This document shows positions 22,273-62,456 of a stretch of 64,000 bases of DNA, one piece after another. The notes below the pieces were generated by a model. The model ran no database searches. It was given only the letters and a program-made list of their open reading frames with translations, and had not been told where the DNA came from. Origin of the DNA: Eledone cirrhosa (lineage: Eukaryota); NCBI GenBank assembly GCA_964016885.1, contig OZ024741.1:282472001-282536000 (forward strand). Reading direction: 5' to 3'. The translations under genes were made by a program, and so were the position numbers. How positions within the stretch are numbered: the first letter of the stretch is position 1; each line of letters opens with the position of its first letter.

Positions 22273-22308
<36 letters not shown>

Positions 22309-22523
22309 TAAGTTAAAGTGTACATCTACATATGTATACGGAAGTATTAGTATGCATATAAATACACACATGTATACATATGTACATGTACTCAGCTTTT
22401 CACTAGACACTTTACAGTGAGTGTCAGCTAGTCTGTATGTAACCACACAGGCGGACCGGGTTTTAGAGTCATACGAGTTTTCAAGGAAACACATTTCCTC
22501 TATTCTCCAGAGGGCCAGACAGG

Positions 22524-22568
22524 AATATTGGACTAGTTTCGATGTTATTACATCTCATCAGCAATATT
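22524..22568 (-). ncRNA. Type I hammerhead ribozyme at the inversion junction
   Basis: Minus strand AATATTG-CTGATGA-GATGT-AATA-ACATC-GAAAC-TA-GTC-CAATATT. Confidence 0.85.
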
Positions 22569-22992
22569 CCTGTCTGGCCCTCTGGTGAATAGAGGAAATG
22601 TGTTTCCTTGAAAACTCGTATGACTCTAAAACCCGGTCCGCCTGTGTGGTTACATACAGACTAGCTGACACTCACTGTAAAGTGTCTAGTGAAAAGCTGA
22701 GTACATGTACATATGTATACATGTGTGTATTTATATGCATACTAATACTTCCGTATACATATGTAGATGTACACTTTAACTTAATTGTTTAAGCGTCAGT
22801 CATACAAAAGTGAGTTAGAAGCGAAACGAAATTTAATTTCGTTTCGTTATTTGTTTTTATCGTTTCCGCTGAACCGGTGCGTACAATGACTCACGTTCTA
22901 TGCAAATTAGTCTACCCACTACTAATTTTCATAGAAAAAGCATAAAACGATATGTGCTTTTACAATTCTCCAGAGAAGCCGGAAGATGGGTA

Positions 22993-23037
22993 AATGTTGC
23001 TGATGAGATGTAATAACATCGAAACTAGTCCAATATT
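22993..23037 (+). ncRNA. Type I hammerhead ribozyme (copy 1); predicted cleavage after C23030
   Basis: Stem I AATGTTG/CAATATT, core CTGATGA, stem II GATGT/ACATC, GAAA, minimal palindromic stem III ACTAGT, GUC triplet. Confidence 0.92.
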
Positions 23038-23461
23038 CCTGTCTGGCCCTCTGGTGAATAGAGGAAATGTGTTTCCTTGAAAACTCGTATGACTCTAAAA
23101 CCCGGTCCGCCTGTGTGGTTACATACAGACTAGCTGACACTCACTGTAAAGTGTCTAGTGAAAAGCTGAGTACATGTACATATGTATACATGTGTGTATT
23201 TATATGCATACTAATACTTCCGTATACATATGTAGATGTACACTTTAACTTAATTGTTTAAGCGTCAGTCATACAAAAGTGAGTTAGAAGCTAAACGAAA
23301 TTTAATTTCGTTTCGTTATTTGTTTTTATCGTTTCCGCTGAACCGGTGCGTACAATGACTCACGTTCTATGCAAATTAGTCTACCCACTACTAATTTTCA
23401 TAGAAAAAGCATATAACGATATGTGCTTTTACAATTCTCCAGAGAAGCCGGAAGATGGGTA

Positions 23462-23506
23462 AATGTTGCTGATGAGATGTAATAACATCGAAACTAGTCC
23501 AATATT
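23462..23506 (+). ncRNA. Type I hammerhead ribozyme (copy 2); cleavage after C23499
   Basis: Identical to copy 1, offset +469. Confidence 0.92.
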
Positions 23507-23930
23507 CCTGTCTGGCCCTCTGGTGAATAGAGGAAATGTGTTTCCTTGAAAACTCGTATGACTCTAAAACCCGGTCCGCCTGTGTGGTTACATACAGACT
23601 AGCTGACACTCACTGTAAAGTGTCTAGTGAAAAGCTGAGTACAAGTACATATGTATACATGTGTGTATTTATATGCATACTAATACTTCCGTATACATAT
23701 GTAGATGTACACTTTAACTTAATTGTTTAAGCGTCAGTCATACAAAAGTGAGTTAGAAGCTAAACGAAATTTAATTTCGTTTCGTTATTTCTTTTTATCG
23801 TTTCCGCTGAACCGGTGCGTACAATGACTCACGTTCTATGCAAATTAGTCTACCCACTACTAATTTTCATAGAAAAAGCATATAACGATATGTGCTTTTA
23901 CAATTCTCCAGAGAAGCCGGAAGATGGGTA

Positions 23931-23975
23931 AATGTTGCTGATGAGATGTAATAACATCGAAACTAGTCCAATATT
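23931..23975 (+). ncRNA. Type I hammerhead ribozyme (copy 3); cleavage after C23968
   Basis: Identical to copy 1, offset +938. Confidence 0.92.
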
Positions 23976-24260
23976 CCTGTCTGGCCCTCTGGAGAATAGA
24001 GGAAATGTGTTTCCTTGAAAACTCGTAAGACTCTAAAACCCGGTCCGCCTGTGTGGTTACATACAGACTAGCTGACACTCACTGTAAAGTGTCTAGTGAA
24101 AAGCTGAGTACATGTACGTATGTATACATGTGTGTATTTATATGCATACTAATACTTCCGTATACATATGTAGATGTACACTTTAACTTAATTGTTTAAG
24201 CGTCAGTCATACAAAAGTGAGTTAGAAGCGAAACAAAATTTAATTTCGTTTCGTTATTTG

Positions 24261-24314
<54 letters not shown>

Positions 24315-24364
24315 ATTATATATATATATATATATATATTAATATTATATATATATATATTATA

Positions 24365-24411
<47 letters not shown>

Positions 24412-24471
24412 TATGTATATATATAATATATATATATATATTATATATATATATATATATTATTATATATA

Positions 24472-24582
24472 TCAAATCCCGCCGAGGTTTACTTTGCCTT
24501 TCATCCTTACGGGGTCGATAAAATAGAGTACCAGTAATGTACTGGAATAATTGCTGGCCTTGTGCCAAAAGTAGAAACAATT
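24472..24582 (+). mobile_element. 5'-truncated SINE family A in (TA)n
   Basis: TCAAATCCCGCCGAGG...GTAGAAACAATT. Confidence 0.9.
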
Positions 24583-24606
24583 ATATATATATATATATTA
24601 TATATA

Positions 24607-24649
<43 letters not shown>

Positions 24650-24685
24650 TATATTATATATATTATATATATATTATATATATAT

Positions 24686-24718
<33 letters not shown>

Positions 24719-24735
24719 ATATATATTATATATAT

Positions 24736-24768
<33 letters not shown>

Positions 24769-24918
24769 ATATATATATTATATATATATATTATATATAT
24801 ATTATATATATATATTATATATATATTATATATATATTATATATATATTATATATATATTATATATATTATATATATATTATATATATATATATATATAT
24901 TATATATATTATATATAT

Positions 24919-24951
<33 letters not shown>

Positions 24952-24981
24952 ATATATATTATATATATATTATATATATAT

Positions 24982-25013
<32 letters not shown>

Positions 25014-25043
25014 ATATTATATATATATATATTATATATATAT

Positions 25044-25074
<31 letters not shown>

Positions 25075-25151
25075 ATATATTATATATATATTATATATAT
25101 ATATATATTATATATATATATATTATATATATATTATATATATATATATAT

Positions 25152-25182
<31 letters not shown>

Positions 25183-25220
25183 ATATATATATATATATTA
25201 TATATATATATATATATATA

Positions 25221-25836
25221 TTAGGGATCAGATGTTGTTTACTCGAGAGAAGGCTACGTTGGTATGGACACGTGATGCGCATGAAGTTGATAGCTGTATA
25301 ACAAAGTGCAGGGCAATAAAGATAGACGGTAGTCACGAATAGGCAGACCTAGAAAAACCTGGGACGAGCTGATAAACTCCGACATCACACACTTACACCT
25401 CTCCAAGACAATGTCACTGGACCGAGACCTTTGGCGGTACTCAGTAACAGAGAAGACCCGCCTTACCTAAATATATAGTAAAACCTACTCCAGCCAGTAG
25501 GCATCTCTAACAAAATACACCCCATCCACACCACCCCGTTCTATGTAAAGTTATGTTGGTGCCGCGCCATCGAGGCCGAAACAAATGAGATCGTGTAGCT
25601 GTCACGACAAAAAAAACACACAGTCCACGCTGTAATGTGGCCGTGTAGGCAACACGGTAAAAACCTCCCAGACCCACACTGTAAATGTGGTTGGTGTTAG
25701 GAAGGGCATCCAACTGTAGAAAACCTGCCAGACAGTCCTATGCGAGCAAGACAATCACTCTTGCCTCAAGTGGGACTACCCCCGTCCAAACCCATGCAAG
25801 CGTGGAACACGGACGTTAAACGTTGATGATGATGAT
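25221..25836 (+). mobile_element. 5'-truncated RTE LINE (ORF end plus 3' UTR)
   Basis: LGIRCCLLERRLRWYGHVMRMK...GRPRKTWDELI; close relative of 54706-55320; (GAT)n tail. Confidence 0.92.
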
Positions 25837-26856: not shown

Positions 26857-27041
26857 ATATATATTGTAATATATATATATATATTATATATATATTATAT
26901 ATATATATATATATTATATATATATAATATAATATATATATTATATATATTATATATATATATATTATATATATATATATATAATATATATATTATATAT
27001 ATATATATTATATATATATATATATAATATATATATATATA

Positions 27042-27424
27042 TACTCCAGCCAGTAGGCATCTCTAACAAAATACACCCCGTCCACCACCACCACCCCCAC
27101 CCGATCCACACCACCCCGTTCTATGTAAAGTTATGTTGGTGCCGCGCCATCGAGGCCGAAACAAATGAGATCGTGTAGGTGTCACGACAAAAAAACACAC
27201 AGACCACGCTGTAATGTGGCCGTGTAGGCAACACGGTAAAAACCTCCCAGACCCACACTGTAAATGTGGTTGGTGTTAGGAAGGGCATCCAACTGTAGAA
27301 AACCTGCCAGACAGTCCTATGCGAGCAAGACAATCACTCTTGCCTCAAGTGGGACTACCCCCGTCCAAACCCATGCAAGCGTGGAACACGGACGTTAAAC
27401 GTTGATGATGATGATGATGATGAT
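27042..27424 (+). mobile_element. RTE LINE 3' UTR fragment
   Basis: Near-identical to 25486-25836; repeated at 32091-32474. Confidence 0.9.
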
Positions 27425-27673
27425 ATATATTATATATATATATATAATATATATATTATATATATATATTATATATATGCATTGTATATATATATATATT
27501 ATATATATATATTGTATATATAATATATATATATATATATTATATATATGCATTGTATATATATATATATTATATATATGCATTGTATATATATATATAT
27601 ATTATATATATATATTATATATATATTATATATATATATATTATATATATGTTGTATATATATATATATGTTA

Positions 27674-50235: not shown

Positions 50236-51120
50236 CTAGCATTAAAGCCCAGCGTTGCTCGGGGTCATTAAGTTGCCAAAGTTAGGTTGCACCACCCATT
50301 TTATGGCAGCACTTTTTTGTCTGCCAGGCACTGGGTGAATGAATTGCAGACCTGGAAGCAGGAGCTGCGTCAGCAGTGACAATTGTAGTTTCGCCTATGG
50401 ATATTATCTCTGTGCAAAAAAGTGTTGAAATTTATTGTTTTACAGTACTTGCGCAACACGCGCGTAGACGATGCCAGCCGAACAACAGAGCTGCGATGGA
50501 GTTGTTCTGCATGGTTGTCTGTGTGTTTTCTAAATTTAAGACAGTAGGGAGGGTTGTGATATGAGGGAGAGTTAGCTGTTGTTTCTAGCAGGTTTAGTGA
50601 CCTCATAGAGGATATGTGTTTTCTAAATTTAAGACAGTAGGGAGTGGTGTGATATGGGGGAGAGTTAGCTGCTGTTTCTAGCAGGTTTAGTGACCTCATG
50701 GAAGATATGTTTTCTAAATTTAAGATAGTAGGGAGGGGTGTGATATGGGGGAGAGTTAGCTGCTGTTTCTAGCAGGTTTAGTAACCTCATAGGGGATATG
50801 TGTTTTCTAAATTTAAGACAGTCGGTGTGAACGGACAGTATCACCATCAAGCTTGGAAAGAGAAAGTAGCAGAAAGTATGAAGTTATATAGATTTTGAAT
50901 GGTAGTGGAAAGAGTTTAGCAGTTTAAATGACAGAGAAAAATCGTAAAATATTGAGTTTTATCTATTTTTTGCGTAATTGTGAGTGAAATTGAAAAAATT
51001 ATCTGCGTCAAGACGCAATCGAAACTATTTCGAATGCTGAATTGTAAATTTCAATTGAAGAAATTCTATATCGTAGATTTCTATAACGAAGGAGCTTGAC
51101 CACACACTGAGCTTTATAGA
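50236..51120 (-). mobile_element. 885-bp non-autonomous Helitron (copy 1) with internal ~93-bp tandem repeat
   Basis: Minus strand 5' TCTATAAAGCTCAGTGTGTG; 3' CCCCGAGCAACGCTGGG...CTAG; TTCTAAATTTAAG recurs at 50528, 50621, 50712 and 50805. Confidence 0.75.
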
Positions 51121-51126
51121 TTACAA

Positions 51127-52268
51127 GAACAACAACAACTACAACAGTGACAACAACAACAGTGAAAACAACAACAAATACAACAGTGACAACAACAACA
51201 ACTACTACAGTGACAACAACAACTACAACAGCTACAACACCAGCAACAACAACAACAACTACAACAGCTACAACACCAGGCAACAACAACAACAGTGACA
51301 ACAACAACTACAACAGTGACAACAACAACAACTACAACAGTGACAACAACAACAACTACAACAGTGACAACAACAACAACAACTACAACAGCTACAACAC
51401 CAGCAACAACAACAACAACTACAACAGCTACAACACCAGCAACAACAACAACTACAACAGCTACAACACCAGCAACAACAACAACAGTGACAACAACAAC
51501 AACTACAACAGTGACACCAACAACACCAACTACAACAGCTACAACACCAACAGTGACAACAACAACAACAACGACAGTGACAACACCAGCAACAACTACA
51601 ACAATGACAACAACAACAACTACAACAGCTACAACACCAGCAACAACAACAACAGTGACAACAACAACAACTACAACAGCTACAACACCAGCAACAACAA
51701 CAACAGTGACAACAACAACAACTACAACAGTGACACCAACAACACCAGCAACTACAACAGCTACAACACCAACAGTGACAACAACAACAACAACGACAGT
51801 GACAACACCAGCAACAACTACAACAATGACAACAACAACAACTACAACAACTACAACAGCTACAACACCAGCAACAACAACAACAGTGACAACAACAACA
51901 ACAACTACAACAGCTACAACACCAGCAACAACAACAGTGACAACAACAACTACAACAGCTACAACACCAGCAACAACAACTACAACAGTGACAACCCCAA
52001 CAACAACAACAACTACGACAGCTACAACACCAGCAACAACAACAACTACAACAGTAACAACACCAACAACAACGACAACTACAACAACAACAATAACAAC
52101 AACAACAACAGCTACAACACCAGCAACAACTACAACAGTGACAACACCAACAACAACTACAACAGTGACAACAACAACAACTACAACAGCTACAACACCA
52201 GCAACAACAACAGTGACACCAACAACAACTACAACAGTGACAACACCAACAACAACAACAACAACAAT
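51127..52268. repeat. (AAC)n-derived complex trinucleotide satellite
   Basis: AAC units interspersed with TAC, AGC, AGT, GAC and ACC in recurring higher-order blocks. Confidence 0.95.
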
Positions 52269-52398: not shown

Positions 52399-53283
52399 CT
52401 AGCATTAAAGCCTGGCGTTGCTCGGAGTCATTAAGTTACCAAAGTTAGGTTGCTCCACCCATTTTATGGTAGCACTTTTTTGTCTGCCAGGCACTGGGTG
52501 AATGAATTGCAGACCTGGAAGCATGAGCTGTGCCAGCAGTGACAATTGTAGTTTCGCCTATGGATATTATCTCTGTGCAAAAAAGTGTTGAAATTTATTG
52601 TTTCACAGTACTTGCGCAACACGCGTGTAGATGATGCCAGCCGAACAACAGAGCTGCGATGGAGTTGTTCTGCGTGGTTGTCTGTGTGTTTTCTAAATTT
52701 AAGACAGTAGGGAGGGTTGTGATATGAGGGAGAGTTAGCTGTTGTTTCTAGCAGGTTTAGTGACCTCATAGAGGATATGTGTTTTCTAAATTTAAGACAG
52801 TAGGGAGTGGTGTGATATGGGGGAGAGTTAGCTGCTGTTTCTAGCAGGTTTAGTGACCTCATGGAAGATATGTTTTCTAAATTTAAGATAGTAGGGAGGG
52901 GTGTGATATGGGGGAGAGTTAGCTGCTGTTTCTAGCAGGTTTAGTAACCTCATAGGGGATATGTGTTTTCTAAATTTAAGACAGTCGGTGTGAACGGACA
53001 GTATCACCATCAAGCTTGGAAAGAGAAAGTAGCAGAAAGTATGAAGTTATATAGATTTTGAATGGTAGTGGAAAGAGTTTAGCAGTTTAAATGACAGAGA
53101 AAAATCGTAAAATATTGAGTTTTATCTATTTTTTGCGTAATTGTGGGTGAAATTGAAAAAATTATCTGCGTCAAGACGCAATCGAAACTATTTCGAATAC
53201 TGAATGGTAAATTTCAATTGAAGACATTCTATATTGTAGATTTCTATAACGAAGGAGCTTGACCACACACTGAGCTTTATAGA
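52399..53283 (-). mobile_element. 885-bp non-autonomous Helitron (copy 2)
   Basis: Near-identical direct repeat of 50236-51120, offset 2163. Confidence 0.75.
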
Positions 53284-54705: not shown

Positions 54706-57700
54706 TCATCATCATCATCATCATCATCATCGTTTAACGTCCATCTTCCATCTTGGTTGACTTGCTCGTATAGGACTGTCTGGCAGGTTTTCTACGGCTG
54801 GATGCCCTTCCTAACACCAACCACATTTACAGTGTGGACTGGGAGGTTTTTACCGTGTTACCTACACGGCCACATTACAGCGTGGACTGTGTGTTTTTTT
54901 TTTTTTTTGCCGTGACACCTACACGACCTCATTTGTTTCGGCCTGGATGTTGAGGTACCAACATAACTTTACATTGAAGGGGGTGGTGTAGATGAGGTGG
55001 GGGTAGTGGGACGGGGTGTATTTTTGTTAGAGGTGCCTACTGACTGTAGTAGGTTTCACTTTGTACTTAGGCAAGGCGGGTCTTCTGTATGACTGTGTAG
55101 CGCCAAAGATCTCGGTCCAGTGACATTGTCTTGGAGAGGTGTAAGTATGTGAGGTTGGAATTTATCAAGTCGTCCCAGGTTTTTCTGGGTCTGCCTATTC
55201 CGTAGCTACCGTCTATTTTTATCGCCCTGCACTTTTTTATACAGCTGTCATCTTTCATGCGCATCACGTGACCGTACCAACATAGTCTTCTCTCCAGTAA
55301 ACAACATCTGATCCCTCTTATTCCTAATTTCTCCCTTAGTTCGTTTATGCTTTGCCGTTCATGTATATTACTATTACACATCCACCGTAGCATGCAAGCT
55401 TCGTTCCTCTCCAGTCTGCGTATATCCTCTGCACACAATGCCCAAGTCTCACTGTCATGTAACATTGCTGTTCGTATGCAGGCATCATACAGCCTGCCTT
55501 TCATTTTTAGAGAGAACCCTTTAGCGGCTCATAGTGGTATAAGCTCTCTGAACTTTTTCCATCCAGTTCTGACTAGCTACTGTACTTTCGGAGCACCCTC
55601 CCCCACTGCTGATTTTGTCACCCAGGTAACGGAAGGTGTCCACTATTTCTATAGAAGCATCTGTGCAATGGAATGAGCTAGTATTGTGGGCACTTGCTGC
55701 TACTTATTGCACCTGAGCACCGGCCACATATAAAATCTATATTCTTAGTTAGCTTACCTGTGATCCCACATCTTTTATGCACCCATACTTTGCATTTGGG
55801 ACATAAAATGGAGTTTCTGCCTACTCCTTTCCTACACACTGAGCATGGCCATTTCCCGGATGGGACCGGCGCCCTATTTTCCTTCCTACACACTAGAACT
55901 TTACTCTTAGACAGGTTAATTTTAAGGCCTTTTGATTCTAGGCCATGCTTCCATGTTTGGAATTTCTTCTCTAGTTCAGCCATTGATTCAGCTATGAGCG
56001 TTAGATCATCTGCGTATAGGAGTTCCCATGGGCAGCCAGTCTTGAACTCCTCTGTTATAGCCTGAAGGGCAATAATAAATAGTAGGGGGCTAAGAACGGA
56101 GCCCTGATGAACACCAACTTTTACGCTAAACTCTTCACTATATTCGTTGTTAATTCTAACTTTGCTGACTGCTTCTTTATACATGGCTTGTATAGCTCTC
56201 ACAAGCCATTCATCAACACCTAGTTTTCTAAGAGCCCACCAGATAATGGAGCAGGGGACTCTGTCAAAGGCTTTCTCCAAGTCAACAAAAGCTAAGTAGA
56301 GGGGTTTACTTTTAGCTAGGTACTTCTCCTGTAGTTGTCGTACAATGAAAAGAGCGTCTGTGGTACTTTTACCTGACACAAACCCGAACTGCATTTCATC
56401 TAGATCAATTCGTTCTCTGATTAGTTGCACTATTACTTTTTCTGTGACCTTCATGACCTGGTCGATTAATTTAATGCCTCTATAGGGCATCTCCTTTACC
56501 CTTGTAGCAGTTAATGATGATGCTGCTACGCCAGTCCTTCGGAACGATCCCATTCTGTATGACTTGGTTTACTATCCGGGTGACCATAGTGTGTCCCACC
56601 GTTCCAGTTGCTTTCAGCATTTCAGCAACTATTTCCGAAGGCCCAGCCGCCTTACCCGTCTTCATATCTTTGATTGCCTTACTTATTATACTACCTTCGA
56701 CTAACACTGCTGGTCCCTCTATTGGATTGATGTGGGGGAGACTGTCTTTCTTCCATTTATTTTCCTCATTTAGTAGCCTTTCGTAGTGACACTTCCAAGC
56801 TACCTTCTTATCAGCGTCAGTGATGGCAAGTACACCATTATCATTCAAGACACACTTCTCCCCGACAATATCACGGTTTTCCTTGACACATTGCCTAGCA
56901 ATCCTAAACACCTCACGTTTTTGGTCCTCGCGTTGTAGAACATGCTTGAACTTTCTTTCCTCTGCTTCCCTTCTTGCGAAGTACACTTGTCTCCTAGCTT
57001 CCCTCCTGACCACTTGATTGTCTTCTCTACTTCTCCCATGCCGCCATACTTTCCAAGCCTGCTTTTTGGCCTTAATTGACTCCTTCACCTTATTGTTCCA
57101 CCACCACGTTACTCTCCTCCTGCCTATAGACCTGCTCCAGCCACAGACTTCATCTGCCGCCTTCAGCAGGTTTGCTTTCAGGAATTCCCACTGTTCCTCT
57201 ATATTGTACGACTCTAATTCTCTTCCTTACTGTCAAAAGCATCAAGTAATATGCTTTTAAATTTATTACTGGCTGTGGGGTCCTTTAGCTTCCATATTTT
57301 TCTCCTGAGGATAGTCCTCCTTTGTTGTCGAGTACGTCTTGTCCTGACTATGAGGTCACTGACTATGAGTCTATGTTGGGAGGTGCATTCTTCATGGGGG
57401 AGGGATTTAGTGTTTACAACAGACACTCTATCACATCTTCTGGTAAGGATATAATCTATCTGGCTGGCGTGTTCCCCTGATCTATAGGTGATCAAGTGAT
57501 TGTCTCGTTTTTTGAAGTTAGTGTTACAGATAGTTAGGTTATTTGCATCACAGAATTCCAGGATTCTGGAGCCTTCCTCATTTCTAGTACCAAACCCATA
57601 GCCTCCATGGATTCCGTCATAGCCGTCACAATGTTGTCCAACGTGACCATTTAGGTTGCCAACAATAATTATGTAGTCACTGTCGGTTATTTGGGAGGTA

Positions 57701-59641: not shown

Positions 59642-62456
59642 GAATATATATATGTATGGGCTTTCTTCTCACTACTAGATAAACACTTCCCATCCGGCCA
59701 CAGGTACCACGGCCTTTTAAACAAAAACACTATTAAGATCTCATACTCTACTACGCCTAACTTAGCATACCACATAGCTAGTTCAAATAAAAGAAAAATT
59801 AATTCTTACTTCCAACAAACTAAATCACAACGGTCGATAAACCTTCAAAATAACATTCAAAATAACAGTCAAAGTAACATTATAACAAATAACCGTAATA
59901 TCAATGGAAATAATAGTAATAGCACTAGTGTAAACATTAACGCTGCGTACCACAACCCTCATAACCATAACCCTATAGCTAACATCCAAACTTCTACACA
60001 GCATAGTAACCGGCAGACTAGCACCCAGAGTAATTGTAACTGTAGATCAAGTAGAACCTGCCCTTTAGATAAAAAATGCTTAACCAAGGATATCATATAC
60101 TCATGTACAGTCACAACTAACAGCTCTTCTGAAACCTATATAGGCTCCACTTCTAACTGCTTCAAAACTAGATACAATTCGCACCTCCACTCTTTCAAAA
60201 AACACAGTCTAGCCAACTCCACTTCACTATCTAGCTACATACACTATCTAAAAACTAAAAATAAAATATATACACTTAAATGGGAAGTGGTAGGTAGTGC
60301 AACATCGTACAAACCACCTAATAAATTTTGTAACCTCTGTCTACTAGAGACCCATACTATCATCTTCTCTAAACATAATCTCCTTAATAAAAAATCAGAA
60401 GTGTTCGCAACTTGCCAACACCGCTTCCGACACTCGTTCAAAACTTTAAACCCTATATATAATAATGTCAGACTGGAACCGGCACCACCCCTAGCAATTA
60501 ACATCAGTAGCACACCTTACACCTCACATCCACACCCATTTATATACTCTAAAGATAATACTGACAGCATTTTAGTACCACCTACCCTGGGAATACCCCC
60601 TTGTACCTCTAATTCTGATATCTCGACCGTGGACTACTTATTCTGCATTGCACAAATATAAGATTAGTATAAACTGGGGACACGGTACTGGTTGCGATAA
60701 CATAGTCCTGTGCATGGATTCCCACCAAGAGATAGATTGATGATTAGATAGATAATCGTATTGTTATGTGAATATATACTGTAAACGATCAGTTCAATGA
60801 ATTATGCACAGGAGATGCATGAGTTAGGAGCCTCTGTGTTGCCTGGTGACCTGACCGGCACCTTTTGACGAGAGAACCGGCCACCGGACCACCCTGGTGA
60901 ACTTACCGGGGATGGAGTCATACCACGACCTGAATCTCGCCGGGAGTCATGTATGATAATAAGACCATTACTGATAGTGAGACCCATGTAGTTAATTATG
61001 TAGTCTGACTCTTCTTATGGATTGGCCGGGTGTGGCACCCCATGTTGGATTGTAGTCATCATGATACGAACTCCTTTAGTACTTGTTACTGGACTCCACT
61101 CTAACTTGTAGATGGGATACCTGATCTATATGTGGGATGTGGGTTTATGTATTGCTTGGTGGCCAGACAGGTGCCCTGGTATGAGAGATTTAATCTCCAG
61201 ATTGTAATCATCTTGATGTCAACTCCTTTAGTACCTATTAATAGACTCCACTCTAGCTTGTAGATGTGATACTTAATTGATTTATATATGAGACGGGGGT
61301 TGTCTATTGCTTGATGACCAGACTAGTGCCTGTATATGAGAAATTGGATCTCCGGACCATACCGAAGATTTACTGGAGATTCAGACATGCAATGACCCGG
61401 AGCCTACCGGGTGGCATATATAATAGCGGGACCATACCAGGTCCTACTGTTATATTACATTTGCACGGAACAGTGACTTGAGAGTCTGACTCCTCTTATA
61501 GAACGTTCAGATATGACACCCCTTAATGGATGGTAATCATCCTAATATATACACCCTTGTACTTCTTAATGGACAACTCTCTAACCTATAAATGGGTAAC
61601 ATACTCTAGAAATTAGTTATAACTTCATATGATAGGCACGTATTTGAATCACCATTAATGTAGTTTAGGATAGTAAGATAACTAGCTAGTTACCTCCCCT
61701 TACGCATTAATTCCCCTTAGTCATTCAGACACTTCCGGAATCTGGACAGCATGATCTATTAATTAAGAACCGACTGGATACGGTTTATAGCTTGATTATA
61801 TGCTGAACCATCGCGAATTATACGATAGACACGTGTTCTCTATATATATTGCGTCTCATGGATTATGTGAGTGGTGGTGTGAGCGAAGACAGTGGTACGG
61901 CTTTGCCTACGATACAATAAGGTTTATAGTATGTTGAAAGTTTTTGATATTTTGGTGTTTCCCTGCATCCGAGACTGTATATCATACAGATGTATGAGAA
62001 TAAATGACTTAATAATTCAGCCCACATAATAAGATCGATTGCCTGCTTCAACTGCCTGACCCTGCAAATATCATTCTGACGCACTCTAATCATGTATAAA
62101 TAAGACACGCGTGCATGCTACACATGAGATTGTTTCATACACTGACTACTCTAAGCTTCCCTCTTGCTTTATCTTCATAGACTGCCAACGCTTCATGTTT
62201 ATCTTTATTTTCATTCTTGTTTTTATTTTATTTTTATCCTGTAACCTTTATATGTAAATTGTCATGCTATATCATTTGATGAATGTCACCCCACTGTTGA
62301 TCAATAAGCGCATATGTTTTATATGTCTCTTGGGTTGAAAAAGAGGTCAAGTATGTTATAGATCAGTAAATAGTTGCTCCGAAGAATCCAAACCTCGGTT
62401 TGGAGGAAACAATTGTAAGCAAATAAATGACTTAAACTGAACTTTGATTATTGTAA

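What the first reader, a model, noticed from the sequence alone, without database searches (positions are those of the whole stretch)
22524..22568. The array begins exactly at the ribozyme cleavage site and the 5' inversion is joined through stem I
Seen: the first direct unit starts at 22562 (CAATATTCC), the first nucleotide after GUC^ (22562+469=23031). The adjoining inverted segment, read on the minus strand, continues from ...AATATTG directly into CTGATGA, the position right after the 5' strand of stem I. Inference: reverse transcription ran to the 5' end of a self-cleaved RNA; the cDNA 3' end (AATATTG) then annealed to the internal stem-I complement (CAACATT) and self-primed second-strand synthesis. 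This would be a genomic record of in vivo cleavage and a role for stem I as a priming device, explaining a Penelope-type inverted 5' end. The inverted arm shares the GGAGAATA variant only with the last unit.
Basis: partly seen in the sequence, partly recalled or inferred. Interest (0 to 1): 0.85.

Follow-up and report, generated by a model that had tools for sequence, protein, structure and literature searches.

The report
Hammerhead retrozyme with two-armed inverted insertions
This is one of thousands of copies of a small ribozyme-bearing jumping repeat whose insertions likely form when two DNA copies of its RNA are made from opposite target strands and joined head to head; the join through the ribozyme stem occurs at this one place only, though other copies likely record ribozyme-cut RNA.

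Summary
The junction is as described: a 469-bp type I hammerhead array starts at 22562 and its inverted arm continues into CTGATGA. The proposed mechanism does not generalise. The element is a non-LTR retrozyme with at least 2,266 insertions. The family's stem I is AATATTG/CAATATT, so the 7-nt junction is a perfect microhomology and the array's true start is anywhere in unit positions 1-8. This stem-I join occurs once in the genome and in 0 of 92 sampled two-armed inversions. 5' ends exactly at the cleavage site are not enriched (ratio 0.92 to control positions). GGAGAATA is the majority allele. In 28 of 91 inversions neither arm fits inside the other, which excludes simple fold-back there. 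What holds: 92 of 116 inversions pair a fixed end at 299 with one near 227; 5' ends are about twofold enriched 5-26 nt downstream of the cleavage site; three other loci have direct joins at that site. Best reading: twin priming plus microhomology joining, a minority of templates ribozyme-cut. Reads neither confirmed nor refuted the junction. The scan had not noted this family before.

The parts
22275..22304 (.). left (TA)n target microsatellite
22301..22561 (-). inverted arm: unit positions 439-469 then 1-230; its 3' end (about 227-230) is the family's second fixed end
22524..22568 (-). complete hammerhead motif re-formed across the junction (stem I 22562-22568 with 22524-22530, core 22531-22561, predicted cleavage between 22531 and 22530)
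   Evidence: sequence; Rfam Hammerhead_HH9 22508-22578, E 5.9e-6, 31.9 bits, below the gathering score of 52
22562..22568 (.). 7-nt junction microhomology CAATATT/AATATTG (stem I); assignable to either arm
22562..23030 (+). retrozyme unit 1 (positions 1-469 counted from the cleavage site)
22993..23037 (+). type I hammerhead: stem I 22993-22999/23031-23037, CUGAUGA 23000-23006, stem II GAUGU/ACAUC, GAAA, palindromic stem III ACUAGU, predicted cleavage after 23030
   Evidence: sequence; Rfam HH9 E 2.1e-5, 30.3 bits, below gathering; compensatory stem II change in the family
23031..23499 (+). unit 2
23462..23506 (+). second hammerhead of the array
   Evidence: 469-bp repeat of 22993-23037
23500..23968 (+). 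unit 3
23931..23975 (+). third hammerhead of the array
23969..24267 (+). last partial unit, positions 1-299; 299 is the family's main fixed 3' end
24199..24267 (+). about 69-nt 'tail' (positions 231-299) present on one arm only
24265..25221 (.). right (TA)n microsatellite; no target-site duplication can be read

Best explanation
This is an insertion of a non-coding 469-bp hammerhead retrozyme into a (TA)n tract, likely made by a Penelope-like element's enzyme priming two cDNAs from opposite target strands at two fixed RNA sites and joining their ends by short complementarity, which here happened to be stem I. Shown: unit, ribozyme motif, (TA)n target, the two fixed 3' ends (299 and about 227), variable head-to-head joins biased to microhomology, and variants shared by the two arms of an insertion. 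Inferred: mobilisation in trans by a Penelope-like RT/GIY-YIG protein; multimeric or circular RNA as template; both arms copied from the same RNA or the same source locus; annealing of the two cDNA 3' ends and gap filling. Also inferred: a minority of templates (roughly 4-8% of passes through the site) carry a ribozyme-made 5' end, and about 5-25 nt are usually lost at joining, giving the twofold excess of ends just downstream of the site and rare exact joins at it. For this locus a cleaved template is plausible but unprovable.
For: At least 2,266 ends at position 299. 92 of 116 inversions in loci chosen by the 299 end pair a 299 end with a 205-237 end, 73 of the 92 at 225, 227 or 230; only 1 pairs 299 with 299. 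28 of 91 pairs: neither arm is contained in the other. Microhomology of 3 nt or more in 19 of 67 blunt or overlapping joins against 6% for random joins; 7-8 nt in 4 of 67 (my end-calling tolerates mismatches, so slightly inflated). The short arm is closer to its own partner than to the median other locus in 73 of 78 pairs. In vitro, an anole Penelope-like protein cuts and extends both target strands and starts at two RNA sites that bound the tail (PMC11167929, parts 1-2 of 4 read). Cleavage-related: 33 ends at positions 465-26 against 15.7 expected (Poisson p 1e-4; scan p 0.008); genome-wide exact-position counts at 10 and 13 are 2.2-fold over controls (p 0.002; 0.008 without 3 loci already sampled); both arms end near the site in 5 of 92 pairs (Fisher p 0.013); direct joins at position 1 at three loci.
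Against: No autonomous partner was found: one GIY-YIG family was checked (30 of 150 scored loci fetched) and the first 60 alignment rows that I printed, covering 4 loci, showed only low-complexity similarity to the unit. 47 of 91 pairs are also compatible with fold-back from the long arm and 16 with the reverse. Shared variants between arms fit fold-back equally well. Four inversions start both arms at nearly the same position with overlaps (206/206, 233/233, 251/259, 259/256), which look like hairpin events. The excess at 465-26 is mirrored by a deficit at 27-60 (5 against 20.6) and coincides with the 3' strand of a predicted long helix, so RT stalling could produce it; the hazard near the site is the same on first and later passes (2.68 and 2.58 per 1,000 nt). 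Exactly at position 1 there is no excess. Self-cleavage and expression were not tested.
Confidence: 0.62

Rival explanations
1. One reading: RT ran to the 5' end of a self-cleaved RNA, the cDNA end annealed to its own stem-I complement and self-primed the second strand, which stopped or was cut at position 230.
For: Junction geometry fits exactly. The arm fits inside the array. The arm has A25 like the last unit; G435, A60 and G150 are private to this locus and could be later mutations, so the last unit and a perfect stem I could have been the template. A second junction lies one base off this register (9|439 with one inserted base, L034; from a non-random set). Self-priming has been proposed for Penelope inverted repeats (PMC3846280, passages).
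Against: Unique in the genome, 0 of 92 sampled, below the roughly 6.5 expected from microhomology bias alone. The arm ends at the same fixed site as arms that cannot be fold-back products. It matches no unit of the array fully. A25 is the majority allele.
Confidence: 0.2
2. The excess of 5' ends at positions 5-26 comes from RT stalling inside the extended stem-I helix of uncut or circular RNA, not from cleavage; the start at 22562 is then pure microhomology chance.
For: The enriched window matches the helix's 3' strand; ends peak near 8-13, not at 1; deficit at 27-60 balances the excess; 389 of 425 passes cross the site without stopping; equal hazard on first and later passes.
Against: Does not explain exact direct joins at position 1 (two loci with two such joins each; a third with 2-nt ambiguity), nor both arms ending near the site together. 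The 3' strand of another hairpin (176-205) is not enriched (ratio 0.67). This rival can be true alongside twin priming.
Confidence: 0.3
3. One cDNA is made from position 299; the inverted arm arises later at the DNA level (template switch or repair) and ends at about 227 because the element's endonuclease cuts there.
For: Position 225-230 is AT-rich (TTAATTGT), and the anole enzyme prefers ATT and cuts its own repeat (PMC11167929). A few near-perfect palindromic joins exist.
Against: Short arms longer than, or not overlapping, their partner (28 of 91) need a second template beyond the inserted cDNA.
Confidence: 0.12
4. The junction is an assembly chimera.
For: No listed contig piece spans it (16 of 348 pieces shown, short unitigs of a repeat).
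Against: The same two-armed layout with the same two ends occurs in 92 of 116 sampled inversions; the arm differs from every unit of the array, which a fold-back read artefact would not do.
Confidence: 0.03

Closest known systems
Metazoan non-LTR retrozymes (PMC7229834, passages; bioRxiv 10.64898/2026.07.22.740005, part 1 of 5 and passages)
   Same: Non-coding tandem units with one type I hammerhead each, AT-rich, dispersed dimers to long multimers; proposed to be non-autonomous derivatives of Penelope-like elements.
   Different: Unit is 469 bp, above the 170-400 nt reported. The passages I searched hold no description of inverted arms or tails ('inverted' 0 in PMC7229834; 'tail' 0 and 'inverted' only in a reference in the preprint). 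Here dispersed arrays carry insertion hallmarks, so they are not only local satellite growth.
Endonuclease-bearing Penelope-like elements with inverted pseudo-LTRs and a tail (PMC8557442; PMC3846280; PMC11167929)
   Same: Partial tandems, 5' truncation, an inverted 5'-truncated copy, an extension on one end only, (TA)n targets, hammerhead with palindromic stem III (PMC4209133, passages).
   Different: No ORF; tail about 69-74 nt rather than 30-40; partner element not identified. In the anole element cleavage was dispensable in vitro and no RNA reads ended at the site, whereas this family shows a weak genomic signal there.
LINE-1 twin priming (recalled; no paper read)
   Same: Two target-primed cDNAs joined by microhomology give a 5' inversion.
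   Different: Here the second start is fixed (about 227) and its copy overlaps the first in sequence; the template is multimeric or circular.
R2 retrotransposon HDV-like ribozyme (PMC3774820, abstract)
   Same: A ribozyme sets the RNA 5' end; where cleavage is at the element's end, 5' junctions vary through chance microhomology.
   Different: R2 ribozyme is HDV-like and defines the full-length 5' end; here most cDNAs pass the site.

Membership tests
Type I hammerhead ribozyme | Core CUGANGA...GAAA...UH with stems I-III, helix I open | tested here: met
   Sequence; Rfam HH9 E 2.1e-5 but 30.3 bits, under the gathering score 52 (none at gathering); stem II compensatory change GAUGU/ACAUC to GUUGU/ACAAC in over 100 counted units
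Type I hammerhead ribozyme | Self-cleavage after GUC | not testable with these tools
   No assay; stem III is 2 bp and palindromic, so dimer activity is expected (PMC4209133)
Non-LTR retrozyme | Tandem units each with a type I hammerhead, at least two in a row | tested here: met
   Three hammerheads 469 bp apart
Non-LTR retrozyme | No protein coding | tested here: met
   No ORF of 150 aa or more from the unit among the 40 longest listed over window and loci
Non-LTR retrozyme | Dispersed high copy number | tested here: met
   2,266 ends at 299; 936 exact unit starts of the young subfamily
Non-LTR retrozyme | Expressed as linear and circular monomer RNA | tested here: inconclusive
   No RNA holder listed; a repeated deletion pair at L246 fits a circular template, indirect only
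Non-autonomous Penelope-like element | Inverted 5'-truncated copy and one-sided tail | tested here: met
   92 of 116 inversions pair ends 299 and about 227
Non-autonomous Penelope-like element | Microsatellite (TA)n target | tested here: met
   All 30 loci printed but two or three continue into (TA)n or TTA repeats; both ends here
Non-autonomous Penelope-like element | Sequence shared with the pseudo-LTR of an autonomous RT/GIY-YIG element | tested here: inconclusive
   One family examined in part, no real match seen; other families not examined
   1 in the genome; 0 of 92
   Corrected counts 11.7 at position 1 against 12.9, 13.3 and 12.0 at 460, 65 and 339; 0 against 0.5 expected in the sample

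The most novel reading that the evidence does not exclude
This family is a genomic record that the Penelope-type inverted end is made by twin priming from two fixed RNA sites, and that hammerhead-cut RNAs do serve as templates in vivo for a minority of insertions, including RNAs whose 3' ends were trimmed back to stem I and then circularised or jumped across, deleting the ribozyme core.
Probability: 0.45. Interest if true: 0.62.

Novelty: new member of a known kind. Interest (0 to 1): 0.4.

Why it matters
How Penelope-like elements form their inverted ends and what their hammerheads do in vivo are stated as open in the papers read (PMC8557442, PMC11167929, PMC3846280). The single junction does not answer either. 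The family does bear on both: thousands of young copies give a strict two-end rule that matches the two RT start sites seen in vitro, a set of inversions that excludes simple self-priming, and a weak but replicated signal next to the cleavage site. It also shows animal retrozyme arrays inserting with Penelope hallmarks. I found no paper with such a tabulation in six library searches; subscription papers are largely missing from that library and PMC5850863 was not held.

Tried and rejected
Rfam at gathering threshold: nothing; microRNA-family matches at E-value level are hairpin noise. Pattern for the 230 end was badly designed and matched internal units; not used for counts. Read support: no RNA holder listed; of 4 runs laid, 2 gave nothing and 2 (one sample) gave short contig pieces, none listed across the junction: no evidence either way. 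Shared GGAGAATA as proof of copying from the last unit: rejected, majority allele. Stem I as preferred join: rejected. Spike exactly at the cleavage site: rejected; these patterns miss ends preceded by chance by the consensus base, which the correction only estimates. General tendency of both arms to end at the same position: not significant once ends near the site are removed (8 against 5.3, p 0.16). GC bias of end positions: none away from the site (0.359 against 0.360). Autonomous partner: not found. Rows left out of the survival test: the window itself, 16 loci found by searches that required the ribozyme region, two stretches of a long satellite array, arms under 30 nt; three duplicate loci were still and removed. 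Earlier-findings look-ups by sequence and by genome returned nothing. No supplements were read.

Full report
What is there. The window holds a 469-bp tandem array at 22562-24267 (3.6 copies, 99% matches) preceded by an inverted arm at 22301-22568, the whole set in (TA)n on both sides. Each unit carries a type I hammerhead: stem I 22993-22999/23031-23037, CUGAUGA at 23000, stem II GAUGU/ACAUC, GAAA, a palindromic two-pair stem III and GUC^ ending at 23030. Rfam gives HH9 at E 2.1e-5, below its gathering score; a compensatory stem II change is common in the family. I number the unit from the first base after the predicted cut. The insertion is then: short arm 439(432)-469,1-230 on the minus strand; long arm 1-469 three times, then 1-299.

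The minus strand reads GACAGG AATATTG CTGATGA. Elsewhere in the genome it is AATATTG (356 of 356 matched units, overlapping loci counted repeatedly), the exact complement of CAATATT. The seven junction bases therefore belong to either arm, and since stem I begins at the cut site, any join through it will appear to start there. The GGAGAATA allele is the majority (290 of 336), and the arm differs from the last unit at positions 60 and 150.

The family. The genome has 936 exact matches to positions 1-21 of the young subfamily and 2,266 ends at position 299 across subfamilies about 88-100% alike. I fetched loci from the first 100 places listed by two searches for the 299 end (fetched; contigs C1 and C2 only), a choice blind to the 5' end, and parsed them against natural units. 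Leaving out the window, 16 loci found through the ribozyme region and a satellite array gave 264 arms: 161 complete long arms, 96 short arms, 7 cut off. There were 116 head-to-head inversions; 92 pair a 299 end with an end at 212-235, mostly 225, 227 or 230; 13 pair 299 with another end, 9 with a cut-off arm, 1 with another 299, and 1 has no 299 end.

Test 1, stem I as a priming device: not met. None of the 92 has one arm near the cut site and the other at 400-445. The junction word occurs once in the genome, with a pattern that covers both main subfamilies. Joins favour microhomology generally: 3 nt or more in 19 of 67, 7-8 nt in 4 of 67, against 6% and about 0.1% at random. About 0.12 stem-I joins are expected among an estimated 1,640 inversions if joins are uniform, about 6.5 with that bias. 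One near miss exists (9|439 with one added base, L034).

Test 2, ends exactly at the cut site: not met. In the young subfamily 8 of 936 unit starts follow a base other than C; 7 are point changes inside arrays and the eighth is this locus. In the older subfamilies, 12 hits with a purine before position 1 were 5 true ends, 2 direct joins and 5 point changes. The same design gave 9 ends of 19 hits at position 65, 7 of 17 at 339 and, with any non-consensus base allowed, 9 of 25 at 460. After correction for word conservation, position 1 stands at 0.92 of the controls (p 0.65). In the sample, 389 of 425 passes cross the site.

Test 3, fold-back. A self-primed arm must lie inside its template arm. 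After removing one duplicate, 47 of 91 pairs allow short-inside-long, 16 the reverse, and 28 neither; in L046 the arms do not even overlap (235-299 and 174-227). Both arms usually share variants: closer to their partner than to the median other locus in 73 of 78 pairs, so they come from one RNA or one source. This locus allows fold-back but does not require it.

What survives of the cleavage idea. Ends at positions 465-26 number 33 against 15.7 expected from exposure (p 1e-4; scan over all 30-nt windows p 0.008), with a deficit at 27-60 (5 against 20.6). Genome-wide, positions 10 and 13 had 16 ends of 22 hits and 15 of 22, 2.2-fold over controls (p 0.002, or 0.008 without three loci already sampled); these two positions were chosen after seeing the sample. 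Both arms end near the site in 5 of 92 pairs (p 0.013). A search for units lacking the ribozyme core gave 5 hits and 0 in the reversed control; 4 hits at 2 loci join position 441-442 directly to position 1. At one, three successive segments each start at position 1; at the other, the same join and a second 100-nt deletion are repeated, as from a circle. A third locus joins 232 to 1, with 2 nt of ambiguity. Direct joins are 2 of 7 events at position 1 against 1 of 56 elsewhere (p 0.03). Against: the enriched window is also the 3' strand of a predicted long helix, and the hazard there is the same on first and later passes, so RT stalling may explain the broad excess; it does not explain the exact joins.

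Mechanism. Most likely a Penelope-like protein, in trans, cuts both strands of a (TA)n target; each strand primes a cDNA, at 299 and near 227, on multimeric or circular RNA; both stop at variable points; their 3' ends anneal through a few complementary bases and are filled in. The anole element cuts and extends both strands and starts at two sites that bound its tail in vitro (PMC11167929; parts 1-2 of 4 read). Inverted copies, tails and (TA)n bias are known Penelope features (PMC8557442, passages), and self-priming was proposed earlier from junction palindromes (PMC3846280, passages), so that idea is not new either. Twin priming is recalled from LINE-1. The partner element was not found; cleavage, expression and the junction's presence in reads were not shown.

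Verdict. A real, correctly described junction in a new member of a known class. Its special role is not supported. The family-level pattern is the worthwhile result: a strict two-end rule, evidence against simple self-priming in about 30% of inversions, and a modest record of ribozyme-cut templates at other loci.

Noticed in passing
L243:1100-2610 (G000:C1, about 218.587 Mb): Insertion with three segments each starting at unit position 1, two of them joined from position 441-442 (ribozyme core absent), plus a slippage run of CCTTGT repeats near the start of the last segment.
   Followed up: yes
L246:1485-2045 (G000:C5, about 81.646 Mb): Core-less unit with a second 100-nt deletion, both repeated in tandem, as if copied round a shortened circle.
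   Followed up: partly
L240:1520-1565: Junction filled with several short templated repeats of positions 1-15 between an arm starting at 1 and an arm starting at 7.
   Followed up: partly
L235 and L242; L284 and L298: The same inversion junction recurs at different loci (10|1 twice; 97|10 twice); recurrent joins or copies of a composite.
   Followed up: no
L019, L022, L045, L157, L158, L171, L173: A related retrozyme family (about 67-69% alike) with different but complementary stem I and II sequences; several further hammerhead-like families, including a 310-bp tandem one in L177.
   Followed up: no
G000:C1:127.664-127.688 Mb, C1:14.044-14.051 Mb, C1:95.62-95.66 Mb: Long arrays of the same unit (about 15 to over 50 copies), at least two still carrying the inverted arm.
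   Followed up: partly
L306-L335: Young Penelope-like family with GIY-YIG domain and open frames of about 796 aa in several copies, 30,543 first-look candidates; carries its own hammerhead-like motif.
   Followed up: partly
window 55681-57226 (-): Reverse transcriptase with a PHD-finger match (PF00078, PF00628): a LINE fragment.
   Followed up: partly
window 59642-60658 (+): 339-aa open frame with a GIY-YIG-like YIG motif but no Pfam hit; possibly another Penelope-like fragment.
   Followed up: partly
window 25226-25835 and 27026-27488: A roughly 600-bp repeat and a partial second copy inside the 14-kb (TA)n tract.
   Followed up: no
window 50522-50822 and 52685-52985; 51123-52267: Two identical 93-bp-period arrays flanking a 1.1-kb (ACA)n-rich repeat.
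   Followed up: no
window 22996, 23465, 23934: A private A-to-G change in stem I is shared by all three hammerheads of this array, and other variants are nested across units 1-3, suggesting local expansion after insertion or a variant source array.
   Followed up: partly
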